Below are positions 6,621-57,934 of a DNA stretch of 64,000 bases, one piece after another; the first letter of the stretch is position 1, and the number at the start of each line of letters is the position of its first letter. Origin of the DNA: Cetorhinus maximus (Eukaryota); contig NC_135901.1 of the NCBI RefSeq assembly GCF_964194155.1, forward strand, positions 24,614,001 to 24,678,000, written 5' to 3'. The translations under genes and the position numbers were made by a program. The notes below the pieces were generated by a model, which saw nothing but the letters and a program-made list of their open reading frames with translations, did no database searches and had not been told where the DNA came from.

Positions 6621-7559
6621 TCACTTATGAAGTCGCTCGTGTGTCACTAGACTGCAGGAGCGAGTGAATCCCTTCCCACACACAGAGCAGGTGAACGGTC
6701 TCTCTCCAGTGTGAACTCGCTGGTGTGCAGAGAGAGCAGATGAACATCTGAACCTCTTTCCACAGTCAGTGCAGCTGAATGGCTTCTCATCAGTGTGAAT
6801 TTGCTGGTGTGACTTAAGGGTGGATGATACAGTGAATCTCTTTCCACACAGAGAGCAGGTGAATGGTCTCTCCCCAGTGTGAACTCGCTGGTGTTCAACA
6901 AGGGCGTATGACTGCTTGAAACTCTTCCTGCAGAAAGTGCAGCTGAATGGCCTCTCCCCAGTGTGAACTCGCTGATGACTCACCAGGCTTGATGACTGAG
7001 TAAATCCCTGCCCACACACTGAGCAGGTGAATGGCTTCTCCCCAGTGTGAACTCACTGGTGTTCTTCGAGGGCGGATGAATACCTGAACCTCTTTCCACA
7101 GGAAGTGCAGCTGAATGGCTTTTCCTCAGAGTGAATTCGCTGGTGAGTAACCAGGTTGGATGACTTTGTGAATCCCTTCCCACACATGGAGCAGGTGAAC
7201 GGTCTCTCCCCAGTGTGAACTCGCTGATGTTGATTGAGGTCAGATGAAGACCTGAACCTCTTTCCACAGGAAATGCAGCTGAATGGCCTCTCCTCAGTGT
7301 GAATTCGCCGGTGCAACATTAGGCAGGTAGGCTGAGTAAATCCCTTGCCACACACGGAACAGATGAACGGCCTCTCCCCAGTGTGACTGCGTCGATGGTT
7401 TTCCAGCAGGGATGGATAATCGAAACCTTTACCACAGTCCTCGCATTTCCATTGTTTTTCCACGGTGCCGGCCCAGGTGTGACTGCGTCGATGATATTCC
7501 AGCCGGGATCTATAACTGAATCCTTTACCACAGTCCTCGCATTTCCACGGTTTCTCCAT
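6621..7559 (-). pseudogene. C2H2 zinc-finger gene, 11 finger units, single in-frame TGA in finger 6 (truncated gene or recent pseudogene)
   Basis: ATG 7559 MEKPWKC. ORFs 7053-7595 and 6621-7019 are in the same frame, separated only by HQ*VH (TGA 7053-7055). TGERPF linkers. Acceptor TTTTACAG at 7934. Confidence 0.85.
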
Positions 7560-8280
7560 GGTACCAGTATCCTTGTGTCTCTCCAGGTTGGACAATCAGT
7601 TGAAGCCTCATCCACACATAGAACACGTGTACAGTTTCTCCCCACTGGAAATGGTGTGATGTTTGTTCAGGCTGTGTAACTTGCTAAAACCCCTTCCACA
7701 GTCACTGCACTGTAATGCTGTCACACAGGGGGTCAGGGGGTGGGGGGTGTCTTGGTGCTTTTCCAGTCACACTGATGTTTGAAATCTTCTCCCACAGACA
7801 GAACAGAGAAACGTTTCATATTCCACATTCAAAGGCCGATGATATTCAGGTCCTGGTGAACTGACTGACTGTCAGTTCTTGACATGAAGCTTGATTTGAG
7901 TTTCCCATCTGTAAATCCTCTCCTAATATTATCCTGTAAAAGGAGATTACACAAGTCATCACTTTAAATCCAAGGCAGAAATTGGGAACAGACAATTCTA
8001 GTTTCTGTGGAACATTTTTTCCCCTCTTGTTCCCCCAAAGCTGTAAATCCCTGTCCCACACACTCTCCCTCCTCCCTGGGCTGAAATCCAAACCCATCTC
8101 ACCATCTCCACCATTTCTTTCCTCCACTCCCAGTTTTCTCCCTCCATCTCCTCTGCCTGGGTTCAGTTCTCCAGCTCTTGTCTGCAGACTGTCAATAAAA
8201 TCAATGAGTCTTATTGGGGTTTGGGGCCTCCAGCGGGTGTTTCTGAATCCTCCCCGCCCACCTCCCAGGGTTTCCTTCCT

Positions 8281-8507
8281 TCCCACAGATCAGATTCCTC
8301 ATTGATTTGAGCCCAAAGTGTAACCTCTTATTTATTGTCCCCCCCTCCCCCATCCTCTGATGTGAACCATCCTCCACTCGCTGACCCAGGATGGCGGCCG
8401 TTAACCTGGGCCTGTTCCCGGGAGGGAGAAGCCCCGCAGCTGCAAACCAGGAGCTGACAATTATTCCTCAGGGTTTGCGGATCCACAAAGTGTTTCCAAA
8501 TCCTCCC
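8281..8507 (-). promoter_or_regulatory. Conserved first-exon/5' block of ZNF paralogs with YY1-like GCCGCCATC
   Basis: Near-identical copies at 38359-38469 plus 39458-39571, 46669-46894, 51707-51931 and partially 56233-56316. Confidence 0.7.
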
Positions 8508-8539
8508 ACTCACCGCCTCGCTCTGACTCCGCTTCTCCG

Positions 8540-8900
8540 GGACAAACAAGCGCTTCTTCTCGCAAGGCCATCAATCGCAATGCGCATGCTCCAAGCTCTT
8601 CGACACTGCACCTGCGCACTGGTGTCCCGCTGTACGGCGCATGCCCCAGCTCACGGGACTCGCCTGATAGACAGATGTTCTGGACCAATAGAGGCTGGGG
8701 GCGGGGCTGGAGGACAGGGCGCGAGACGCTGGTTCTTCAACCAATCGGAGCGAATGAGGGGCGGGACTGAGCCCGTATCTCCCTCATTAGCTGAAACTGC
8801 ATCATTTCAAAAACTGATTTATTGCAAACTCCAGGAGAAAACTGGACCTTTCTGTTTGTGGCTTTAAACAGATGAAACCCTGTGGGTGTGGAGTAAACAT
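8540..8900 (-). promoter_or_regulatory. CpG-rich ZNF promoter (type A)
   Basis: NRF1-like TGCGCATGCTC at 8581, CCAAT at 8685 and 8741, GC boxes at ~8697 and ~8758. Locally CpG-rich. Confidence 0.7.
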
Positions 8901-38350: not shown

Positions 38351-38469
38351 GCTGGACGGGGAGGATTTGGAAACACTTTGTGGATCCGCAAACCCTGAGG
38401 AATAATTCTCAGCTCCTGGTTTGCAGCTGCGGGGCTTCTCCCTCCCGGGAACAGGCCCAGGTTAACGGC

Positions 38470-39444
38470 AACAAAAACAGAATTACCTGGAAAAACTCAG
38501 CAGGTCTGGCAGCATCGGTGGAGAAGAAATCAGTTAACGTTTCGAGTCCTCAAGACCCTTCAGCAGAACTGAGTATAGTTAGAAGAAAGGTGAAATATAA
38601 GCTGGTCTAAGGTGGGGGGCGGGGGGGGGGGAGAGAGAAGTTGAGGGTGGGGTGATTGTGGGGATAAGCAAGCAGTGATAGGAGCAGATAATCAAAAGAT
38701 GTCACAGACAAAAGGATCAAAGAGGTGTTGAAGGTGGTGATATTATCTAAGAAAAGTGCTAATTAAGAATGGAAGGCAGGATACTCAAGGTACAGCTCTA
38801 GTGGGGGTGGGGTGGAAAGACTAACAAAGTTTTAGTTTTAGATTTAAAAATAATGGAAATAGGTGGGAAAAGAAGAATCTATATAAATTATTGAAAAAAA
38901 AGGGGGGGAGGGGAGAGAAACGGGGTGGGGATGGGGGGAGGGGGAGTTTACAATCTAAAGTTGTTGAATTCAATATTCAGCCCGGAAGGCTGTAAAGTGC
39001 CTAGTCGGAAGATGAGGTGCTGTTCCTCCAGTTTGCGCTGGGCTTCACTGGAACAATGCAGCAAGCCAAGGACAGACATGTGGGCAAGAGAACAGGGTGG
39101 AGTGTTAAAATGGCAAGCGACAGGGAGGTTTGGGTCTTTCTTGTGGACAGACCGCAGGTGTTCTGCAAAGCGGTCGCCCAGTTTGCATTTGGTCTCTCCA
39201 ATGTAGAGGAGACCGCATTGGGAGCAACAAATGAAGTAGACTGAGTTAGGGGAAATGCAAGTGAAATGCTGTTTCACCTCTCTCCTAACTATACTCAGTT
39301 CTGCCGAAGGGTCGTGAGGACTCGAAACATTAACTGATTTCTTCTCCACCGATGCTGCCAGACCTGCTGAGTTTTTCCAGGTAATTCTGTTTTTGTTTTG
39401 GATTTCCAGCATCCGCAGTAGCTTTTAGCTTTTTGTTTTTATCT
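38470..39444 (-). mobile_element. Penelope-like element with inverted pLTR, inserted in ZNF exon 1
   Basis: GIY-YIG ORF 38948-39270. Inverted repeats 38470-38595 and 39272-39396. TSD CCAGGTTAACGGC at 38457-38469 and 39445-39457. Hammerheads at 38530-38572(-) and 39295-39337(+). Confidence 0.9.
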
Positions 39445-39850
39445 CCAGGTTAACGGCCGCCATCCTGGGTCAGCGAGTGGAGGATGGTTCACATCAGAGG
39501 ATGGGGGAGGGGGACAATAAATAAGAGGTTACACTTTGGGCTCAAATCAATTTGGAATCTGAACTGTGGGAAGGAAGGAAACCCTGGGAGGTGGGCGGGG
39601 AGGATTCAGAAACACCCGCTGGAGGCCCCAAACCCCCAATAAGACTCATTGATTTTATTGTCAGTCTGCAGACAGGAGCTGGAGAACTGAACCCAGGCAG
39701 AGGAGAGGGAGGGAGAAAACTGGGAGTGGAGGAAAGAAATGGTGAGATGGGTTTGGATTTCAGGCCAGGGAGGAGGGAGAGTGTGTAGGATGGGGATGTA
39801 CAGCTTTCTGTACAGCTCTCTCACTTTTTTTCTGTTTTAAATCAATTTAA

Positions 39851-40354
<504 letters not shown>

Positions 40355-43651: not shown

Positions 43652-44190
43652 GAGGTGAGGATTAAGGAGACTAGGGGGGTGGGGGGAAGGGAGAGCACTT
43701 CAAAAGGAAGTAAATTTGTGTTGGAGATGTTTAAAAGACTCGACACACTCCGTGTTTAACAGAAAACTGATTTATTTGACTTTTGCTGCGGGACACACAG
43801 TAAGTCCAGTGTCTGAAAGTGATTAACAGGCTGGGTTTTGTGTTTATCCATCCCGGCTGTGTGACCAATACCTTCTCTGGACCCCAAGGCTCGGCGAGAC
43901 ACTCTGGAAGGTATGGGGAGCTGGGACTTGTTCATGAGAGTAACCGAAGGTATGAGAACTAAAATCATTGAAAGTTAGAAAGGAGAAAAGGCCCAAAAAG
44001 CAGTCAGTGGAGAATTTAAGGACCCAACGCTCTGTGTTTCAAACAACATTAATATCTTGAGATCTGTCAAATGAATTAAACTTCAGCCCAGCTACAGGGC
44101 TATTAACATCAGCCCAACTGTCAGGATGAACCTGCTTCAGTCCTGGATGTGATTAACAGCTGTGATAACAGCAGAATCCAACCCCTGCAT

Positions 44191-45280
44191 TCAGTTGTGA
44201 ACACGCTGGTGTCTCATTAAGTGGGATGAATGAGTGAATCCATTCCCACACATGGAGCAGGTGAAAGGCCTCTCCTCAGTGTGAATTCGCTGGTGTCTCA
44301 GCAGAACACCTGGGGTTTTAAAAGTCTTCTCACATTCTGAACATTTGAAAGGTCTGTTATCAGTGTGAACAAGTTGATGTGAATTGAGGTGAGCTCGCCG
44401 AGTGAATCCTTTCATGCACACAGAGCAGGTGAACAACCTTTCCCCATTGTGAACCTGCTGGTGTGTCAGTAGGTGGGATGAACGGGTCAATCCCTTCCCA
44501 CATACGGAGCAAGTGAATGGCCTCTCCCCTGCGTGAATGCGCTGGTGCATCAGCAGATCCCTTGTGGTTTTAAAGTTCTTCTCATAGTCAGAACATTGGA
44601 AAGGTTTCCGATCAGAGTGAACTCACTGGTGCAGGTTGAGGTTGGTCAAACAAATAAATCCCTTCTGGCAGATGGAATAGATAAACGGCCTCTCCTCAGT
44701 GTGAACTCGCCGGTGTCTCAGCAGGTTACCTGTGGTTTTAAAGCTCTTCCCACATTCAGAACATTGGAAAGGTCTGATATCAGTGTGAACAAGTTGGTGT
44801 GAACTGAGGTGAGATAGTCGAGTGAATCCCTTCCCACACACGGGGAAGGTGAGTGCCCTCTCCCTGGTGTGAACTTGTTGGTGTTTTATGAGGTTCAGTG
44901 ATTGTCTAAACACTTTCCCGCAATGAGAACAACTGAACTGTCTCAGTGTGAACAAACTGGTGCTTGACCAGGTCGTCTCATCTTTTAAAGCTCTTCTCAC
45001 AATCAGAGCAGTTAAACAGCCTCTCATCAATGTGCACCAGCTGGTGTCTCAGCAGCTGGGACAGAAAATTGAATCTCTTCCCACACACAGAGCAGGTTAA
45101 CGGGTTCTTCCCGGTGTGAGTCCTCTGGTGTATATGTAAGCTGGAAGATAATGTGAATCCCTCCCCACACACCGAGCAGGTGAACGGCCTCTCCCCGGTG
45201 TGACTGCGTCGATGAATCTCCAGCTGCGATGGGTAATTGAATCCCTTCCCGCAGTCCTCACATTTCCATAGTTTCTCCAC
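44191..45280 (-). pseudogene. C2H2 ZNF pseudogene, ~13 finger units
   Basis: GTG start (VEKLWKC), TGA at 44978 and 44623, frameshift at ~44942, several Cys losses. Confidence 0.88.
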
Positions 45281-46668
45281 AGTGTCCGTGTCCTTAAGTC
45301 TTTCCAGGATGGACAATCAGTTGAAGCCTCATTCACACACAGAACACGTGTACGGCTTCTCCACACTGCGAATGGTTCTGTTTGTGTTTAGGCTGTGTAA
45401 CTGGTTAAAGCTCATTCCACAATCAGTGCACTGGAACACTCTCACTCGGGTGTGTGTGTGTGTGTCTCGGTGATTCTCCCAGTTGTTTCCAATCTTTCCC
45501 TACAGTCAGAACAGACAAACATTTCTCCTTCCACATTCAAAAGCCGATGATGTTCAGGTCTTGATGAAATGAGTCATTCTGTCAGATCCTGATGTGATTT
45601 TTGGTTTGAGTTACCGATCTGCAAATCCTCCCCTTCTAAAGCCCTGTAAAAGGAGATTACAATAATCATCACTGTCAGTCCAGGACAGAAATTCACAACT
45701 GACAATTCTAGTTCCTATGGAACATTTTTTTCTCCCTTATTCCCCCAAAGCTGTAAATCCCCATCCCACATACTCTCCCTTCTTCCAGGGCTAAAATCTA
45801 AATAAAATGTTGGATAATTCTTTCTGTATTCTTTTAACAATTCCGATAGAGACAGCAACATGTTCGATAATTCACATCATTCATGACTCGTGACAAAACA
45901 TTACGCAATCAAACATCTGAATGTGTGTTCCCTTGCTAAAATGTGGGAAAAACGCTGTCTGGACTTCAGTAGAAAACACCAGAATCCCACCTCCCATTCA
46001 CATGGAAGTAAATGCAATGGAGTGCAGGAGAAAAGATACCATTCTGCAAATAAGCTATGGGACAAATACACTACAAGACAGCCCAATCACCTACTGTATA
46101 AAACTCAAATAGGATGTAAATGATTGAGAATTTAATGAATTCAAGCTGACAACATTTAATCAAAGGACTTTAATAGAAAATGCAGTAAACCTTTCATTTC
46201 TATTCTATAGATTAAGGAGTCCTCCATTTTGTAACATATTGAAATGACTTGTATGCTGAAATCATAATTGTGCAATCCTTAGATTGATTTGTATTTTAAT
46301 ATTGTCTATAACTATGTCATGAATGATGATTACTTGTTTTATTTGTATCATCATCACAATTCAATGCCTGGCACTGTGATGACTTTTCTATAAACCAATT
46401 ATCTATCGAACCAAATCAATTATCTATTAATCTGAATCACCCTGACCGACCACACAGAATAACAGACGTTAACCTTGTGTCTAGAACTTACTGTGTTGAG
46501 ATTTAATAAGGTGGTTTCTCCACACCTCCCAGGGTTTCCATCCTTCTTTCTCTCTCTCTGTCTAACTAAGTTAAACTCAGTCTTTTGTCCCATTTTGGTT
46601 TCTGGTTTTTTTCATGCCCAATGTCACCTTGAGGGCATGTTTTACAAGGAGCCATTTCTTAATAGTTT

Positions 46669-47090
46669 CCACAGATCAGAGTCCTCATTTGATTTGAGCC
46701 CAAAGTGTAACCTCTTATTTATTGTCCCCCCCTTCCCCATCCTCTGATGTGAACCATCCTCCACTCGCTGACCCAGGATGGCGGCCATTAACCTGGGCCT
46801 GTTCCCGGGAGGGAGAAGCCCCGCAGCTGCAAGCCAGGAGCTGACAATTATTCCTCAGGGTTTGTGGATCCACAAAGTGTTTCCAAATCCTCCCCATCCA
46901 GCCGCCGGCTCCATCTCTCCCTCAGCCGGCTGCAGAAGCGACAAACAAGTGGCTCTCCGTGGTCATGAATGACGCTGCACATGCTCCAAATGTGGGGGGG
47001 GGGGGGGCACTGAGCCTGCGCACTGGTCTCCTGTGGTGTGGATAGGGGACATTCTCTACCTCAAGGAATGTTGGGTAAAAGCCCCACCAT
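46669..47090 (-). promoter_or_regulatory. Conserved first-exon block plus promoter of the 44-45 kb gene
   Basis: Block at 46669-46894. Upstream GGATAG..ACATTCT..GAATGTTGGGTAA resembles 23853-23891. Confidence 0.65.
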
Positions 47091-49935: not shown

Positions 49936-50139
49936 TTCATGAATTAAGGGGAATGATCACAGATGGTGCTTTTAAAAAGGGACACTGCAGCCCCGAATAT
50001 CAGTGACACCTCCAGAATATTAAACTCCAGCCAATTATAGGGGTTGTTAACATCAGCAGAATCAAACCTGACATTTGTCAGACTATCAATTCTGGATGTG
50101 ATTAACAGCAGTGATAACAGCAGAATCCCACCCCTGCAG

Positions 50140-50814
50140 TCACTTATGAACTCGCTCATGTGTCACTGGGTTGAAGGACCGAGTGAATCTCTTCCCACAC
50201 ACGGAGCAGGTGAATGGTCTCTCTCCAGTGTGAACTCTCTGATGTGCCAGGAGAGCAGATGAACATCTGAAACTCTTTCCACAGTCCGTGCAGCTGAATG
50301 GCTTCTCCTCAGTGTAAATTTGCTGGTGCGACTCGAGGGCGGTTGATACAGTGAAACCCTTCCCACACACGGAGCAAGTGAACGGTCTCTCCCCAGTGTG
50401 AACTCGCTGGTGTGCAATGAGGGTGGATGACTGCCTGAAACTTTTTCCACAGGAAGTGCAGCTAAATGGCTTCTCCCCGTTGTGAACTCGCTGGTGTGAC
50501 CTAAGGCCGGATGAATGAGTGAATCCCTTCCCACACACAGGGCAAGTGAATGGCTTCTGCCCAGTGTGAAATCGCTGGTGTATATTAAGGTCAGATGAAG
50601 ACCTGAACCTCTTTTCACAGTGAGTGCAGCTGAATGGCCTCTCCTCAGTGTGAATTCGCTGGTGTGACATGAATTTGGTTGTCTGAGTGAATCCCTTCCC
50701 ACAGACGGAACAGATGAACGGCTTCTCCCCGGTGTGAATGCGTCGATGGATTTCCAGCTGAGATGGATAATTGAATCCTTTACCACAATCCTTACATTTC
50801 CATGGTTTTACCAT
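50140..50814 (-). CDS. C2H2 zinc-finger protein, 224 aa, 8 units (sixth has H to Y)
   Basis: Intact [13 protein letters not shown]...VTHERVHK. Closest paralog of 6621-7559. Acceptor TTTTATAG at ~51179. Confidence 0.88.
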
Positions 50815-51706
50815 GGTGCCAGAGTTCTTATGTCTCTCCAGGTTGAATAATCAGTTAAAGTCTTGTCCACACAGAAAACACGTGTACGGTCTCTCCCTGC
50901 TGTGAATGGTATGATGTTTTTTCAGGCTATGTAACTGGTGAAAGCTCTTTCCACAGTCAGTGCACTGAACACTCTCACTCGGGTGTGTGTGTGCCTCAGT
51001 GTTTTTCCAGTCACGCTGATGCTTGAAATCTTTTCCCACAGACAGAACAGACAAGCATTTCTCCTTCCACATTCAATTGCCGATGATATTCAGGTCCTGA
51101 TGAATCGAGTGACGGTTTTAAATCTTGATGTGAAGTTTGATTTGAGCTTCCCTCTGTAAATCTTCACCTTCTAATATCCTATAAAAGGAGTTCACAAAAC
51201 TCTTAACTGTCAGCACAGCATAGAAATTCAGAACAGACAATTCTAGTTTCTATGGACTATTTCTTCCTCTCGTTTCCCCAAAGCTGTAAATGCCCGTCCC
51301 ACACACTCTCCCTCCCCCGGGCTGAAATCCAAACCCATCTCACCATCTCCACCATTTCTTTCCTCCACTCCCAGTTTTCTCCCTCCCTCTCCTCTGCCTG
51401 GGTGCAGTTCTCCAGCTCCTGTCTGCAGAGTGGGAAGAAAATTAATGAGTCAATCATTTTCTCTCCTGGTCACTGGGACTGTGACTCGCTTCAGCACCAC
51501 AAAGAGCACCATTTACAGCAGGGAGAAACCATACACGTGTTCTGCATGTAGTCAAGGTTTCAACTGATCATCTCTCTTGTTAAATAACAAGTGCAATCAC
51601 ACTGGGATAAACTGTGTCAATCACAGAATGCGTCTTATTGGGGATTTGGGGCCTCCAGCGGGTGTTTCTGAATCCTCCCCGCCCACCTCCCAGGGTTTCC
51701 TTCCTT

Positions 51707-52320
51707 CCCACAGATCAGATTCCTCATTGATTTGAGCCCAAAGTGTAACCTCTTATTTACTGTCCCCCCTCCCCCATCCTCTGATGTGAACCATCCTCCA
51801 CTCGCTGACCCAGGATGGCGGCCGTTAACCTGGAGCTGTTCCCAGGAGGGAGAAGCCCCGCAGCTGCAAACCTGGAGGTGACAATTATTCCTCAGGGTTT
51901 GCGGATCCACAAAGTGTTTCCAAATCCTCCCACCCACCGCCTCGCTCTGACTCTGCTTCTCCGGGACAAACAGGCGCCTCTTTCCGCAAGGACATCAATC
52001 GCACTGCGCATGTACCAGACTCTTTGACACTGCGCCTGCGTAATGTTGGCCAGCTTCGTCAGCCACACTGCCCGACTGATTGACGGCAGTTCCAGACCAA
52101 TAGGAAGAGGGGCAGGTTTGGAGGTCCGAGAGGGAGCAGCTGCTGCTCCAACCAATCGGAGTGAATGAGGGGCGGGGCTGATCCCGGATCTACCTCATTG
52201 GCTGAAACTCTGCATCATTTTGAAAGCTGATTTGTCTCAGACTCCAGGAGAAAACTGGACCTTTCTGTTTGTGGCTTTAAACAGATGAAACCCTGTGGGT
52301 GTGGAGCAAACATTTCAACA
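51707..52320 (-). promoter_or_regulatory. Conserved first-exon block and type A promoter
   Basis: Block at 51707-51931, TGCGCATG at 52005, CCAAT at ~52097 and ~52152, GGGGCGGGGC at ~52169. Confidence 0.72.
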
Positions 52321-55979: not shown

Positions 55980-56320
55980 CAATGACTATTGGAGTCCAGT
56001 GCGCAGGTGCAGTGTGGGTGTGCGCTCTGAGCATGCTCAGTGTCAGTCATGGTGACAGATTGAGGAGGAGCGGACGGTTCGGGAGGTGGGAGGAGATTGT
56101 GAGTACAGGGTAGGAATGGAAACCGCGGCTGGACTCGGAACTGGATCAACTTCTGGGGTAGGCCCCAGGTCCCGTGTTTACCCCACGGTGACAGGCCCGG
56201 GGGGAGGGAGCGATGGAGCCGGCGGCTGGACGGGGAGGATTTGGAAACACTTTGTGGATCCGCAAACCCTGAGGAATAATTGTCAGCTCCTGGTTTGCAG
56301 CTGCGGGGCTTCTCCCGGAG
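55980..56320 (+). promoter_or_regulatory. Type B promoter joined to partial conserved first-exon block
   Basis: 55980-56200 is the inverse of 30920-31137. 56233-56316 matches the block. Confidence 0.7.
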
Positions 56321-56770: not shown

Positions 56771-57152
56771 TAAAAACTGGAATTGTCTATTCTGAATTTC
56801 TACACCCTGTACTTACAACGATAAATTTTGTAAACTCTTTTTGCATGTATTAGAAGGGAAGGATTTGTAGATGGGAAACTCTAAATAATCGTCTTGGTTT
56901 GAGTCACTTGATTATTCTGGACCTGAATATCATGAACCTTTGAATGTGGAAGAAGAAATGTTTGTCTGTTCTGTACGTGGAAAAGATTTCAAACATCGGT
57001 GTGTGACTGCAAAAGCACCGAGACACACACACCCAAGTGAGTGTGTTCTAGTGAACTGACTAGGGAAAGATCTTTAACCAGTTACACAGCCTGAAAAAAA
57101 TCACACCATTCACAGTGGGGAGAAACCGTACACATGTTCTGTGTGAGGATGA

Positions 57153-57875
<723 letters not shown>

Positions 57876-57934
57876 CTGCAGGGGTTGGATTCTGTTGTTA
57901 TTGCTGCTGTTAATCACATCCAGGATTGATAGTA

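What the first reader, a model, noticed from the sequence alone, without database searches (positions are those of the whole stretch)
8281..8507. Near-invariant ~230-bp non-coding block shared by diverged ZNF genes with different promoters
Seen: GGGAGGATTTGGAAACACTTTGTGGATCCGCAAACCCTGAGGAATAATTGTCAGCTCC...GGCCGCCATCCTGGGTCAGCGAGTGGAGGATGG...GGGCTCAAATCAA. It occurs just downstream of five promoters (8.3, 38.4/39.5, 46.7, 51.7 and partially 56.2 kb), always sense to the ZNF, with only a handful of differences. The finger arrays and promoter cores are visibly more diverged, and the block is attached to three promoter types. It has a YY1-like site and a 7-bp stem CCATCCT/AGGATGG with a second competing AGGATGG. 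In three copies high identity continues ~250 bp into the intron. Inference: a family-wide regulatory DNA or RNA module kept by selection or spread by gene conversion, possibly co-regulating a KRAB-less ZNF repertoire.
Basis: partly seen in the sequence, partly recalled or inferred. Interest (0 to 1): 0.7.

Follow-up and report, generated by a model that had tools for sequence, protein, structure and literature searches.

The report
Homogenised intron starts of shark ZNFs
About 200 otherwise diverged zinc-finger genes on one chromosome of a shark-type genome share a nearly identical stretch just behind their promoters, likely the start of their first intron, which is likely kept alike by DNA copying between gene copies plus a push toward one version, and which likely lets these genes swap promoters.

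Summary
The block is real. About 200 copies lie almost only in the first 26.4 Mb of contig C24; 100 of 105 examined sit 0.3-4 kb upstream of a same-strand C2H2 array. It is not family-wide: 9 of 45 arrays carry it, against at least 2,570 family motifs. Copies differ by 2.6% while four-fold sites of their coding regions differ by 40%, and block distance does not track gene age. It is part of a 480-680-nt plateau over a predicted exon-1/intron-1 junction. In the youngest duplicates the block changes faster than its flanks, mostly by alleles shared with older lineages, which points to interlocus gene conversion. Neutral conversion at that rate is too weak (simulated diversity 0.13-0.19, observed 0.021), so selection or biased donors are also needed. 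There is no RNA-fold, coding or YY1-specific conservation signal. A sequence-unrelated module 3.3 Mb away shows the same positional plateau; the scan noted that module, and copying between ZNF front ends, earlier on other DNA of this genome. Function is untested and cross-species distance is uncalibrated. Verdict: new variant of promoter-region concerted evolution.

The parts
8281..8507 (-). Block core, copy A (positions 1-227); equals the majority sequence of 81 copies over the 205 positions compared
8207..8280 (-). Block positions 228-301: older donor-like module of which block 1-85 is a roughly 70% paralogue (score 70 against shuffle maximum 46)
8068..8206 (-). D1a, G-rich 3' part of the plateau; 97-99% identical also in some genes without the block
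8508..8547 (-). U1 tail: predicted end of non-coding exon 1 and donor GCG|GTGAGT (8513-8508); a GT donor-like site precedes the block in 20 of 20 U1 copies
   Evidence: splicing inferred, no joint shown
8548..8830 (-). U1 promoter-like region (CCAAT, GC-box and GCGCATGCGC-like motifs, labels recalled); 15-45% diverged among U1 genes
6621..7935 (-). Predicted acceptor (AG at 7935-7934) and exon 2 of ZNF gene A; finger array broken by an in-frame stop near 7053
38359..38469 (+). Copy B, positions 1-111
38470..39444 (.). Penelope-like insertion splitting copy B; TSD at 38457-38469 and 39445-39457
39445..39646 (+). Copy B, positions 99-301, followed by a shortened D1 and a degenerate finger array (about 39908-40340)
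46666..46894 (-). Copy C, positions 1-228, D2-type downstream; array at about 44189-45262
51632..51931 (-). Copy D, positions 1-300, U1 promoter; array at about 50138-50964
55997..56230 (+). U2 upstream module (236 nt, 97.9% to another U2 copy), head-to-head with copy D
56233..56316 (+). Copy E, truncated at position 84 like six other fetched copies; array at about 57303-57876

Best explanation
The block is the shared core of a 480-680-nt near-identical stretch behind the promoters of about 200 KRAB-less zinc-finger genes, likely the start of intron 1, and it is likely kept alike by short-tract gene conversion between paralogues acting together with a directional force that likely favours the majority sequence. 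Shown: location, identity plateau inside older homology on both sides, independence from gene age, excess of shared alleles in young duplicates, mosaic flanks. Inferred steps: (1) it arose by tandem duplication of the exon-1 donor module; (2) this promoter-proximal zone is open and break-prone in the germline; (3) breaks are repaired from paralogues, with conversion roughly 50-450 times the mutation rate; (4) weak selection for a promoter-proximal or splicing role, or biased donors, keeps copies within about 1% of one sequence; (5) occasional crossovers in the shared stretch swap promoter types among old finger arrays.
For: Block p = 0.026 against 0.395 at four-fold sites in 20 CDS-dereplicated genes; Mantel rho -0.14, p 0.82. 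Plateau of p 0-0.035 from +1 to +440 rising to 0.18-0.28 from +481, with graded edges, in 10 dereplicated D1 genes. Block distance is 0.8-1.0% where three flank clocks read 0.11-0.16% and saturates at about 2.3-2.5% on the exon-2 clock from 3% to 22%. In 7 recent-duplicate groups variant density is 24/4072 in the block against about 1.7 per 1000 in flanks. 15 of 23 segregating alleles also occur in older lineages, chance about 17%. Three common alleles (21, 17, 15 of 81) occur in all four-gamete combinations. L057, nested in its group by flank sites, has two private sites back at the majority state. U1/U2 occur with both D1 and D2; pairs such as L037/L049 are 0.1% apart upstream and 4.8% downstream. 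Tajima's D -2.3 and 72% singletons in 44 lineages; directional simulations give pi 0.033-0.042, neutral ones 0.13-0.19 at c/mu 100-300. Broken and intact genes carry equally clean blocks (2.3 against 2.1 differences, p 0.42; 44 and 30 copies). An unrelated module after a GTGAGT site shows the same positional plateau in 14 copies.
Against: 10 of the 15 shared alleles fall on three sites, so site-specific recurrent mutation or assembly chimerism could mimic conversion, and the binomial p (4e-7) treats non-independent events as independent. The conversion rate is my arithmetic from few events. The simulation is haploid, without gene birth and death, 1-3 replicates, and still overshoots the observed pi. 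No splice joint, TSS or function was shown (one search listed 15 of 336 joints, all among fingers and exon 2). The second module is not uniformly G-skewed, which weakens an R-loop cause. Contigs of two other organism labels carry the same majority sequence, which pure selection also predicts. A KRAB hit resembling PRDM9 (label recalled) means promoter-default hotspots cannot be assumed.
Confidence: 0.55

Rival explanations
1. Purifying selection alone preserves an inherited cis-regulatory module (working like MER57E3); shared alleles are recurrent mutations or assembly errors.
For: Star-like variation, D -2.3. Contigs of organisms A and B match the majority sequence: 0 substitutions in 271 nt, at most 1 in 358 nt. 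Six organism labels hold 79% or more of the sampled words. Carrier status is uniform within close subfamilies. Few CpG transitions, 3 of 50 against 61 of 212 in flanks, fit an unmethylated regulatory region.
Against: Block distance does not scale with age and exceeds flank distance in young duplicates. No motif-level cold spots. Broken genes are as clean as intact ones. Truncations at 34 and 84 nt and 7 distinct insertions in the plateau persist. About 80-90% of the family lacks the block.
Confidence: 0.2
2. A one-off recent sweep: a transient break hotspot (for example a PRDM9 allele) or a favoured haplotype overwrote the region in many old genes about 1% of divergence ago, and the block has since evolved neutrally with modest conversion.
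For: Star-like spectrum and uniform divergence of about 1.3% from the majority; no sign of constraint; a PRDM9-like KRAB exists (label recalled).
Against: It must overwrite all members of at least 14 deep lineages at once. A second module has a deeper plateau (3-8%), suggesting a recurring positional process rather than a single event.
Confidence: 0.15
3. A mobile element that targets ZNF promoters.
For: Sharp common 5' start and discrete 3' ends; one orphan fragment on C23 inside a Penelope-like repeat.
Against: No TSD, terminal repeat or poly-A tail visible at its ends; same nucleotide position in collinear old duplicates; near absence outside the ZNF territory; internal paralogy to the native donor module.
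Confidence: 0.05
4. The near-identity is an assembly or polishing artefact.
For: Multi-copy near-identical regions are prone to read mis-assignment (general knowledge); assembly method unknown.
Against: Independent public runs hold the same sequence. Young duplicates show few indels (27 events, 8 in homopolymers) and a CpG-rich, biological flank spectrum.
Confidence: 0.05

Closest known systems
Mouse V1R subfamily promoter 'peaks' (PMC1955453; passages read)
   Same: Long unbroken promoter-region homology among paralogues of a large clustered family; the authors speculate that gene conversion homogenises it so that genes compete equally for shared factors.
   Different: Here the plateau lies behind the promoter core, is shared across deep coding lineages and different promoter types, is 97-99% identical, and conversion-like events are visible in young duplicates.
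MER57E3 in the first intron of primate ZNF genes (PMC9122532, PMC12947407; passages read)
   Same: Repeat concentrated on a ZNF-rich chromosome, in intron 1 near the TSS, proposed to have spread with ZNF duplication; shown there to activate the host ZNF gene.
   Different: MER57E3 is an old, diverged ERV1 LTR with copies away from ZNFs. This block has no LTR features found, derives from the gene's own donor module, is near-invariant, and has no functional test.
Zebrafish chromosome 4 NLR-B30.2 and multi-finger gene territory (10.1101/027151; passages read)
   Same: Chromosome-scale territory of paralogues in which one segment (B30.2) is inferred to be converted across otherwise diverged groups.
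   Different: That segment is coding and diversified by selection; this one is non-coding and homogenised.
Cyprinid FiNZ-ZNF genes (PMC10547256; passages read)
   Same: Hundreds of KRAB-less two-exon ZNF genes sharing a conserved 5' part.
   Different: FiNZ is a 28-residue coding exon; the block shows no synonymous bias in any frame and has G-run length variation.

Membership tests
Concerted evolution by interlocus gene conversion | Segment identity among paralogues decoupled from the age of the duplication | tested here: met
Concerted evolution by interlocus gene conversion | Variants shared across lineages, incompatible with the flank tree | tested here: met
   15 of 23; four gametes; L057; recurrent mutation or assembly error not excluded
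Concerted evolution by interlocus gene conversion | Paralogues closer than orthologues between species | tested here: inconclusive
   Contigs collapse to one majority sequence identical in two other labels; species distances not calibrated
Concerted evolution by interlocus gene conversion | Neutral conversion rate sufficient for the observed identity | tested here: not met
   pi 0.13-0.19 simulated at c/mu 100-300 against 0.021 observed
Dispersed transposable element (SINE, LTR, MITE) | Genome-wide dispersal away from one gene family | tested here: not met
   96 of the first 100 listed of 117 exact hits on C24, none on C1-C23; 1 listed C23 hit among 181
Dispersed transposable element (SINE, LTR, MITE) | TSD, terminal repeats or poly-A tail | tested here: not met
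   read by eye from flanks; no repeat-library search was available
MER57E3-like first-intron activator | Position in intron 1 near the TSS of clustered ZNF genes | tested here: inconclusive
   Donor-like site in 20 of 20 U1 copies, acceptor-like site in 34 of 36 D1 genes; low putative-RNA depth; no splice joint shown
MER57E3-like first-intron activator | Deletion lowers host gene expression | not testable with these tools
   needs reporter or knock-out
Structured non-coding RNA | Rfam match, folding better than shuffles, covariation | tested here: not met
   0 Rfam hits at gathering score in the window; z 0.09; arms vary only by singletons
FiNZ/KRAB-type coding effector exon | Open frame with synonymous bias | tested here: not met
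   best frame 26 of 78 synonymous against 0.27 expected; G-run length varies; single KRAB hit on C34

The most novel reading that the evidence does not exclude
The first few hundred bases of intron 1 are a positional, directional gene-conversion hub of a whole ZNF chromosome: germline breaks just behind active promoters are repaired from paralogues in favour of one sequence per subfamily network, which equalises promoter-proximal regulation across hundreds of genes and lets promoters be exchanged among fast-evolving finger arrays, a non-coding molecular drive that shapes a KRAB-less ZNF repertoire.
Probability: 0.25. Interest if true: 0.78.

Novelty: new variant of a known kind. Interest (0 to 1): 0.5.

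Why it matters
How lineage-specific ZNF repertoires of thousands of genes acquire, keep and exchange working promoters is open. Homogenisation of promoter regions by conversion was proposed for V1R genes as speculation. Here about 200 copies with nested young duplicates make the process measurable: a conversion rate can be estimated, the neutral model can be tested and fails, and a second unrelated module gives a positional replicate. It also shows that near-invariant non-coding blocks among paralogues need not signal sequence-specific function.

Tried and rejected
Structured RNA: no Rfam hit, z 0.09. Coding exon: no synonymous bias in six frames. YY1 core as the conserved cause: not colder than the rest. 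Family-wide element: 9 of 45 arrays; none in 120 kb at 27.94-28.06 Mb or in four distal loci. Neutral conversion equilibrium: rejected by simulation. G-skew or R-loop as a general cause: fits this plateau but not the second module. A non-carrier pair checked for its own plateau showed only a weak dip (1-3 differences per 100 against 3-13). Splice joints from putative RNA contigs: none shown among 15 of 336 rows. Cross-species calibration: no single-copy neutral distance was obtained for organisms B-F; indirectly, one organism-A contig differs from the G000 members of the gene A subfamily at two or more sites plus indels in 146 nt, too little to decide. The printed p of 1e-6 for insertions used 7 of 9 including the query copy and one older element and overstates the case; 5 of 7 young insertions is the fair count. 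Carrier gain or loss on the exon-2 tree: 8 changes, only 2 forced by well-supported branches. Paper searches listed no paper on this element; PMC10463633 passages were not useful.

Full report
OBSERVATION. The block is present as described: copies at 8281-8507, 46669-46894, 51706-51931, 38359-38469 plus 39445-39571, and the first 84 nt at 56233-56316, at 96-100% identity. Copy B is split by a Penelope-like insert with a 13-bp target-site duplication. The window lies at C24:24,614,001-24,678,000 of a 3.99-Gb genome.

DISTRIBUTION. An exact 25-mer from the block start has 117 hits, control 0; of the 100 listed, 96 are on C24 between 0.45 and 26.4 Mb, none on C1-C23, and 4 on small contigs. A 3' 24-mer has 181 hits at up to one mismatch, one listed on C23. 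A central 29-mer has 196 hits at up to three mismatches, so there is no large pool of moderately diverged copies. I fetched 100 loci: 91 chosen by the exact 25-mer, which biases toward high identity, and 9 by the 3' pattern. With the five window copies, 100 of 105 have a same-strand C2H2 array within 5.5 kb downstream. The C23 copy is an orphan fragment inside a Penelope-like repeat. As a control for that bias I read 624 kb of contiguous DNA, window included: 9 of 45 arrays carry a copy at 93% or more, and the others show only short fragments, or longer ones at 69-87%. The family has at least 2,570 first-finger motifs and extends to 63 Mb of C24. So the block marks roughly a tenth of the family. 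One KRAB hit exists, on C34; it resembles PRDM9 by recall.

ANATOMY. In U1-type genes a GT donor-like site directly precedes the block in 20 of 20 copies, and an acceptor-like site lies at +500 to +640 in 34 of 36 D1-type genes. Putative RNA contigs cover the block thinly (about 30-230) compared with exon 2 (hundreds to many thousands, summed over paralogues) and not at all at 8600-8683. No splice joint was shown, so 'intron 1' is inferred. Block 1-85 is a roughly 70% paralogue of block 236-299 plus the D3 flank (score 70, shuffle maximum 46), suggesting origin by duplication of the gene's own donor module. Upstream types U1, U2 and rarer others combine with downstream types D1, D2, D3; copies end at 34, 84, 221-228 or 299-301. 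In 10 dereplicated D1 genes pairwise distance is 0-0.035 from +1 to +440, 0.09 at +441, and 0.18-0.28 through the acceptor and exon 2; upstream it stays low for 40 nt (U1) or 236 nt (U2) and then rises to 0.15-0.46. The finding is the common core of this plateau, which is G-skewed and purine-rich.

IDENTITY AGAINST AGE. For 20 genes more than 5% apart in coding sequence (from 63 of 105 with a full block and an in-register two-finger segment), block distance is 0.026 and four-fold-site distance 0.395 (1204 of 3045); the two are uncorrelated (Mantel rho -0.14, p 0.82). Second fingers may not be orthologous, but the non-finger part of exon 2 gives 0.17-0.35. With flanks as clocks over 74 genes, block distance is 0.8-1.0% when flanks differ by 0.11-0.16%, and about 2.3-2.5% when the exon-2 clock reads 3% to 22%; the two outer-flank clocks are noisier, 1.3-3.4%. 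Inherited sequence under purifying selection would not outrun its flanks in young pairs.

CONVERSION SIGNS. In seven groups of recent duplicates (24 loci) the block has 24 variant alleles in 4072 weighted sites against about 1.7 per 1000 in flanks. Of 23 segregating non-majority alleles in the first 205 positions, 15 occur in older lineages, chance about 17%; 10 of these are at three sites. Those three alleles (50G>A in 21, 173T>G in 17, 123G>C in 15 of 81 copies) occur in all four combinations. L057 is sister to L053 by eight shared sites, five of them outside the plateau, yet has two group-private sites back at the majority state. Some pairs are recombinant across the gene's 5' part, such as L037/L049 (0.1% upstream, 4.8% downstream). 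Flank differences are 29% CpG transitions (61 of 212) with few indels, which suggests an accurate assembly; plateau differences are 3 of 50. Recurrent mutation at three sites or assembly chimerism is not excluded.

NEUTRAL CONVERSION IS NOT ENOUGH. My arithmetic gives conversion at 50-450 times the mutation rate. A simple simulation leaves pi at 0.13-0.19 for ratios 100-300 and 0.044-0.051 for 1000-2000 with 44 copies; the observed value in 44 lineages is 0.021 with 72% singletons and Tajima's D -2.3. Conversion biased to one sequence gives 0.033-0.042 and 48-88% singletons (haploid, 1-3 replicates). So selection, biased donors or a recent sweep is required. Against strict selection: variation is not lower in the YY1-like core or stem arms, broken genes carry blocks as clean as intact ones, truncated forms have been duplicated, and seven distinct Penelope-like insertions sit in the plateau, including 5 of 7 young ones in 8.7% of the scanned length. 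For selection: contigs of organisms A and B carry the majority sequence (0 substitutions in 271 nt; at most 1 in 358 nt) and six organism labels hold 79% or more of the words in 19 of 24 listed runs. Their neutral distance from this genome is not known, and a family majority is expected to be shared by close relatives under every model.

POSITIONAL REPLICATE. An earlier scan note pointed to a leader 3.3 Mb away. It has no match to this block (local scores within shuffles), yet 14 copies show 0.03-0.08 distance over about 250 nt right after a GTGAGT site against 0.23-0.6 on both sides. D1a is also 97-99% identical in genes without the block. The plateau is thus tied to position rather than to this sequence. 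The second module is not uniformly G-skewed.

NOT RNA, NOT CODING. No Rfam hit, fold z 0.09, no synonymous bias in six frames.

COMPARISON. Closest are V1R promoter peaks, for which conversion was speculated (PMC1955453, passages); cross-group conversion of B30.2 on zebrafish chromosome 4 (10.1101/027151, passages); and, as a functional analogue, MER57E3 (PMC9122532 and PMC12947407, passages). It fails membership of transposons, structured RNAs and FiNZ-type exons (PMC10547256, passages; no occurrence of shark, cartilaginous or gene conversion in its main text). PRDM9 status in cartilaginous fish is partial or tentative in PMC5519329 (passages). PMC3924837 and PMC5865164 were seen only as search listings. 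Eight searches listed no description of this element; the library lacks most subscription papers.

VERDICT. A real, gene-restricted non-coding plateau, best read as promoter-proximal concerted evolution with a directional component (0.55). New variant of a known kind; interest 0.5, higher if read-level and cross-species tests confirm a positional conversion hub.

Noticed in passing
window 51931(-)/56233(+); C24 3.13, 4.65, 11.64, 16.71, 24.22 Mb: Head-to-head pairs of block-bearing genes 4.0-4.3 kb apart recur at six places on C24, indicating a duplicated bidirectional cassette.
   Followed up: no
L204-L215, C24 about 27.94-28.06 Mb: A second, unrelated near-invariant module of about 250 nt right after a GTGAGT site, 14 copies in 120 kb.
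   Followed up: partly
window 38470-39444; L085, L104, L105, L109, L114, L039: Young Penelope-like insertions cluster in the promoter-proximal plateau; some are short inverted-terminal forms with TSDs.
   Followed up: partly
L189, C34:9123034-9123144: The only KRAB hit in the genome; sequence resembles the PRDM9 KRAB by recall; neighbours not examined.
   Followed up: no
L194-L197, C24 46-57 Mb: Distal C24 holds a young ZNF subfamily about 1% diverged over 3 kb despite being megabases apart, without the block.
   Followed up: partly
L122, C23 about 43.448 Mb: Orphan fragment (block 42-299 plus a few D3 bases) inside a Penelope-like repeat, possibly captured by a retroelement.
   Followed up: partly
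window 6621-7595, 44137-45285, 39908-40340, 57100-57930: Most window ZNFs have stops or frameshifts; 44 of 74 scored carriers were broken by my criterion.
   Followed up: partly
L037, L044, L049, L053, L057, L069, L071 at block position 182: An AT-rich replacement of about 24 nt inside the block marks one lineage and appears to bound conversion tracts.
   Followed up: partly
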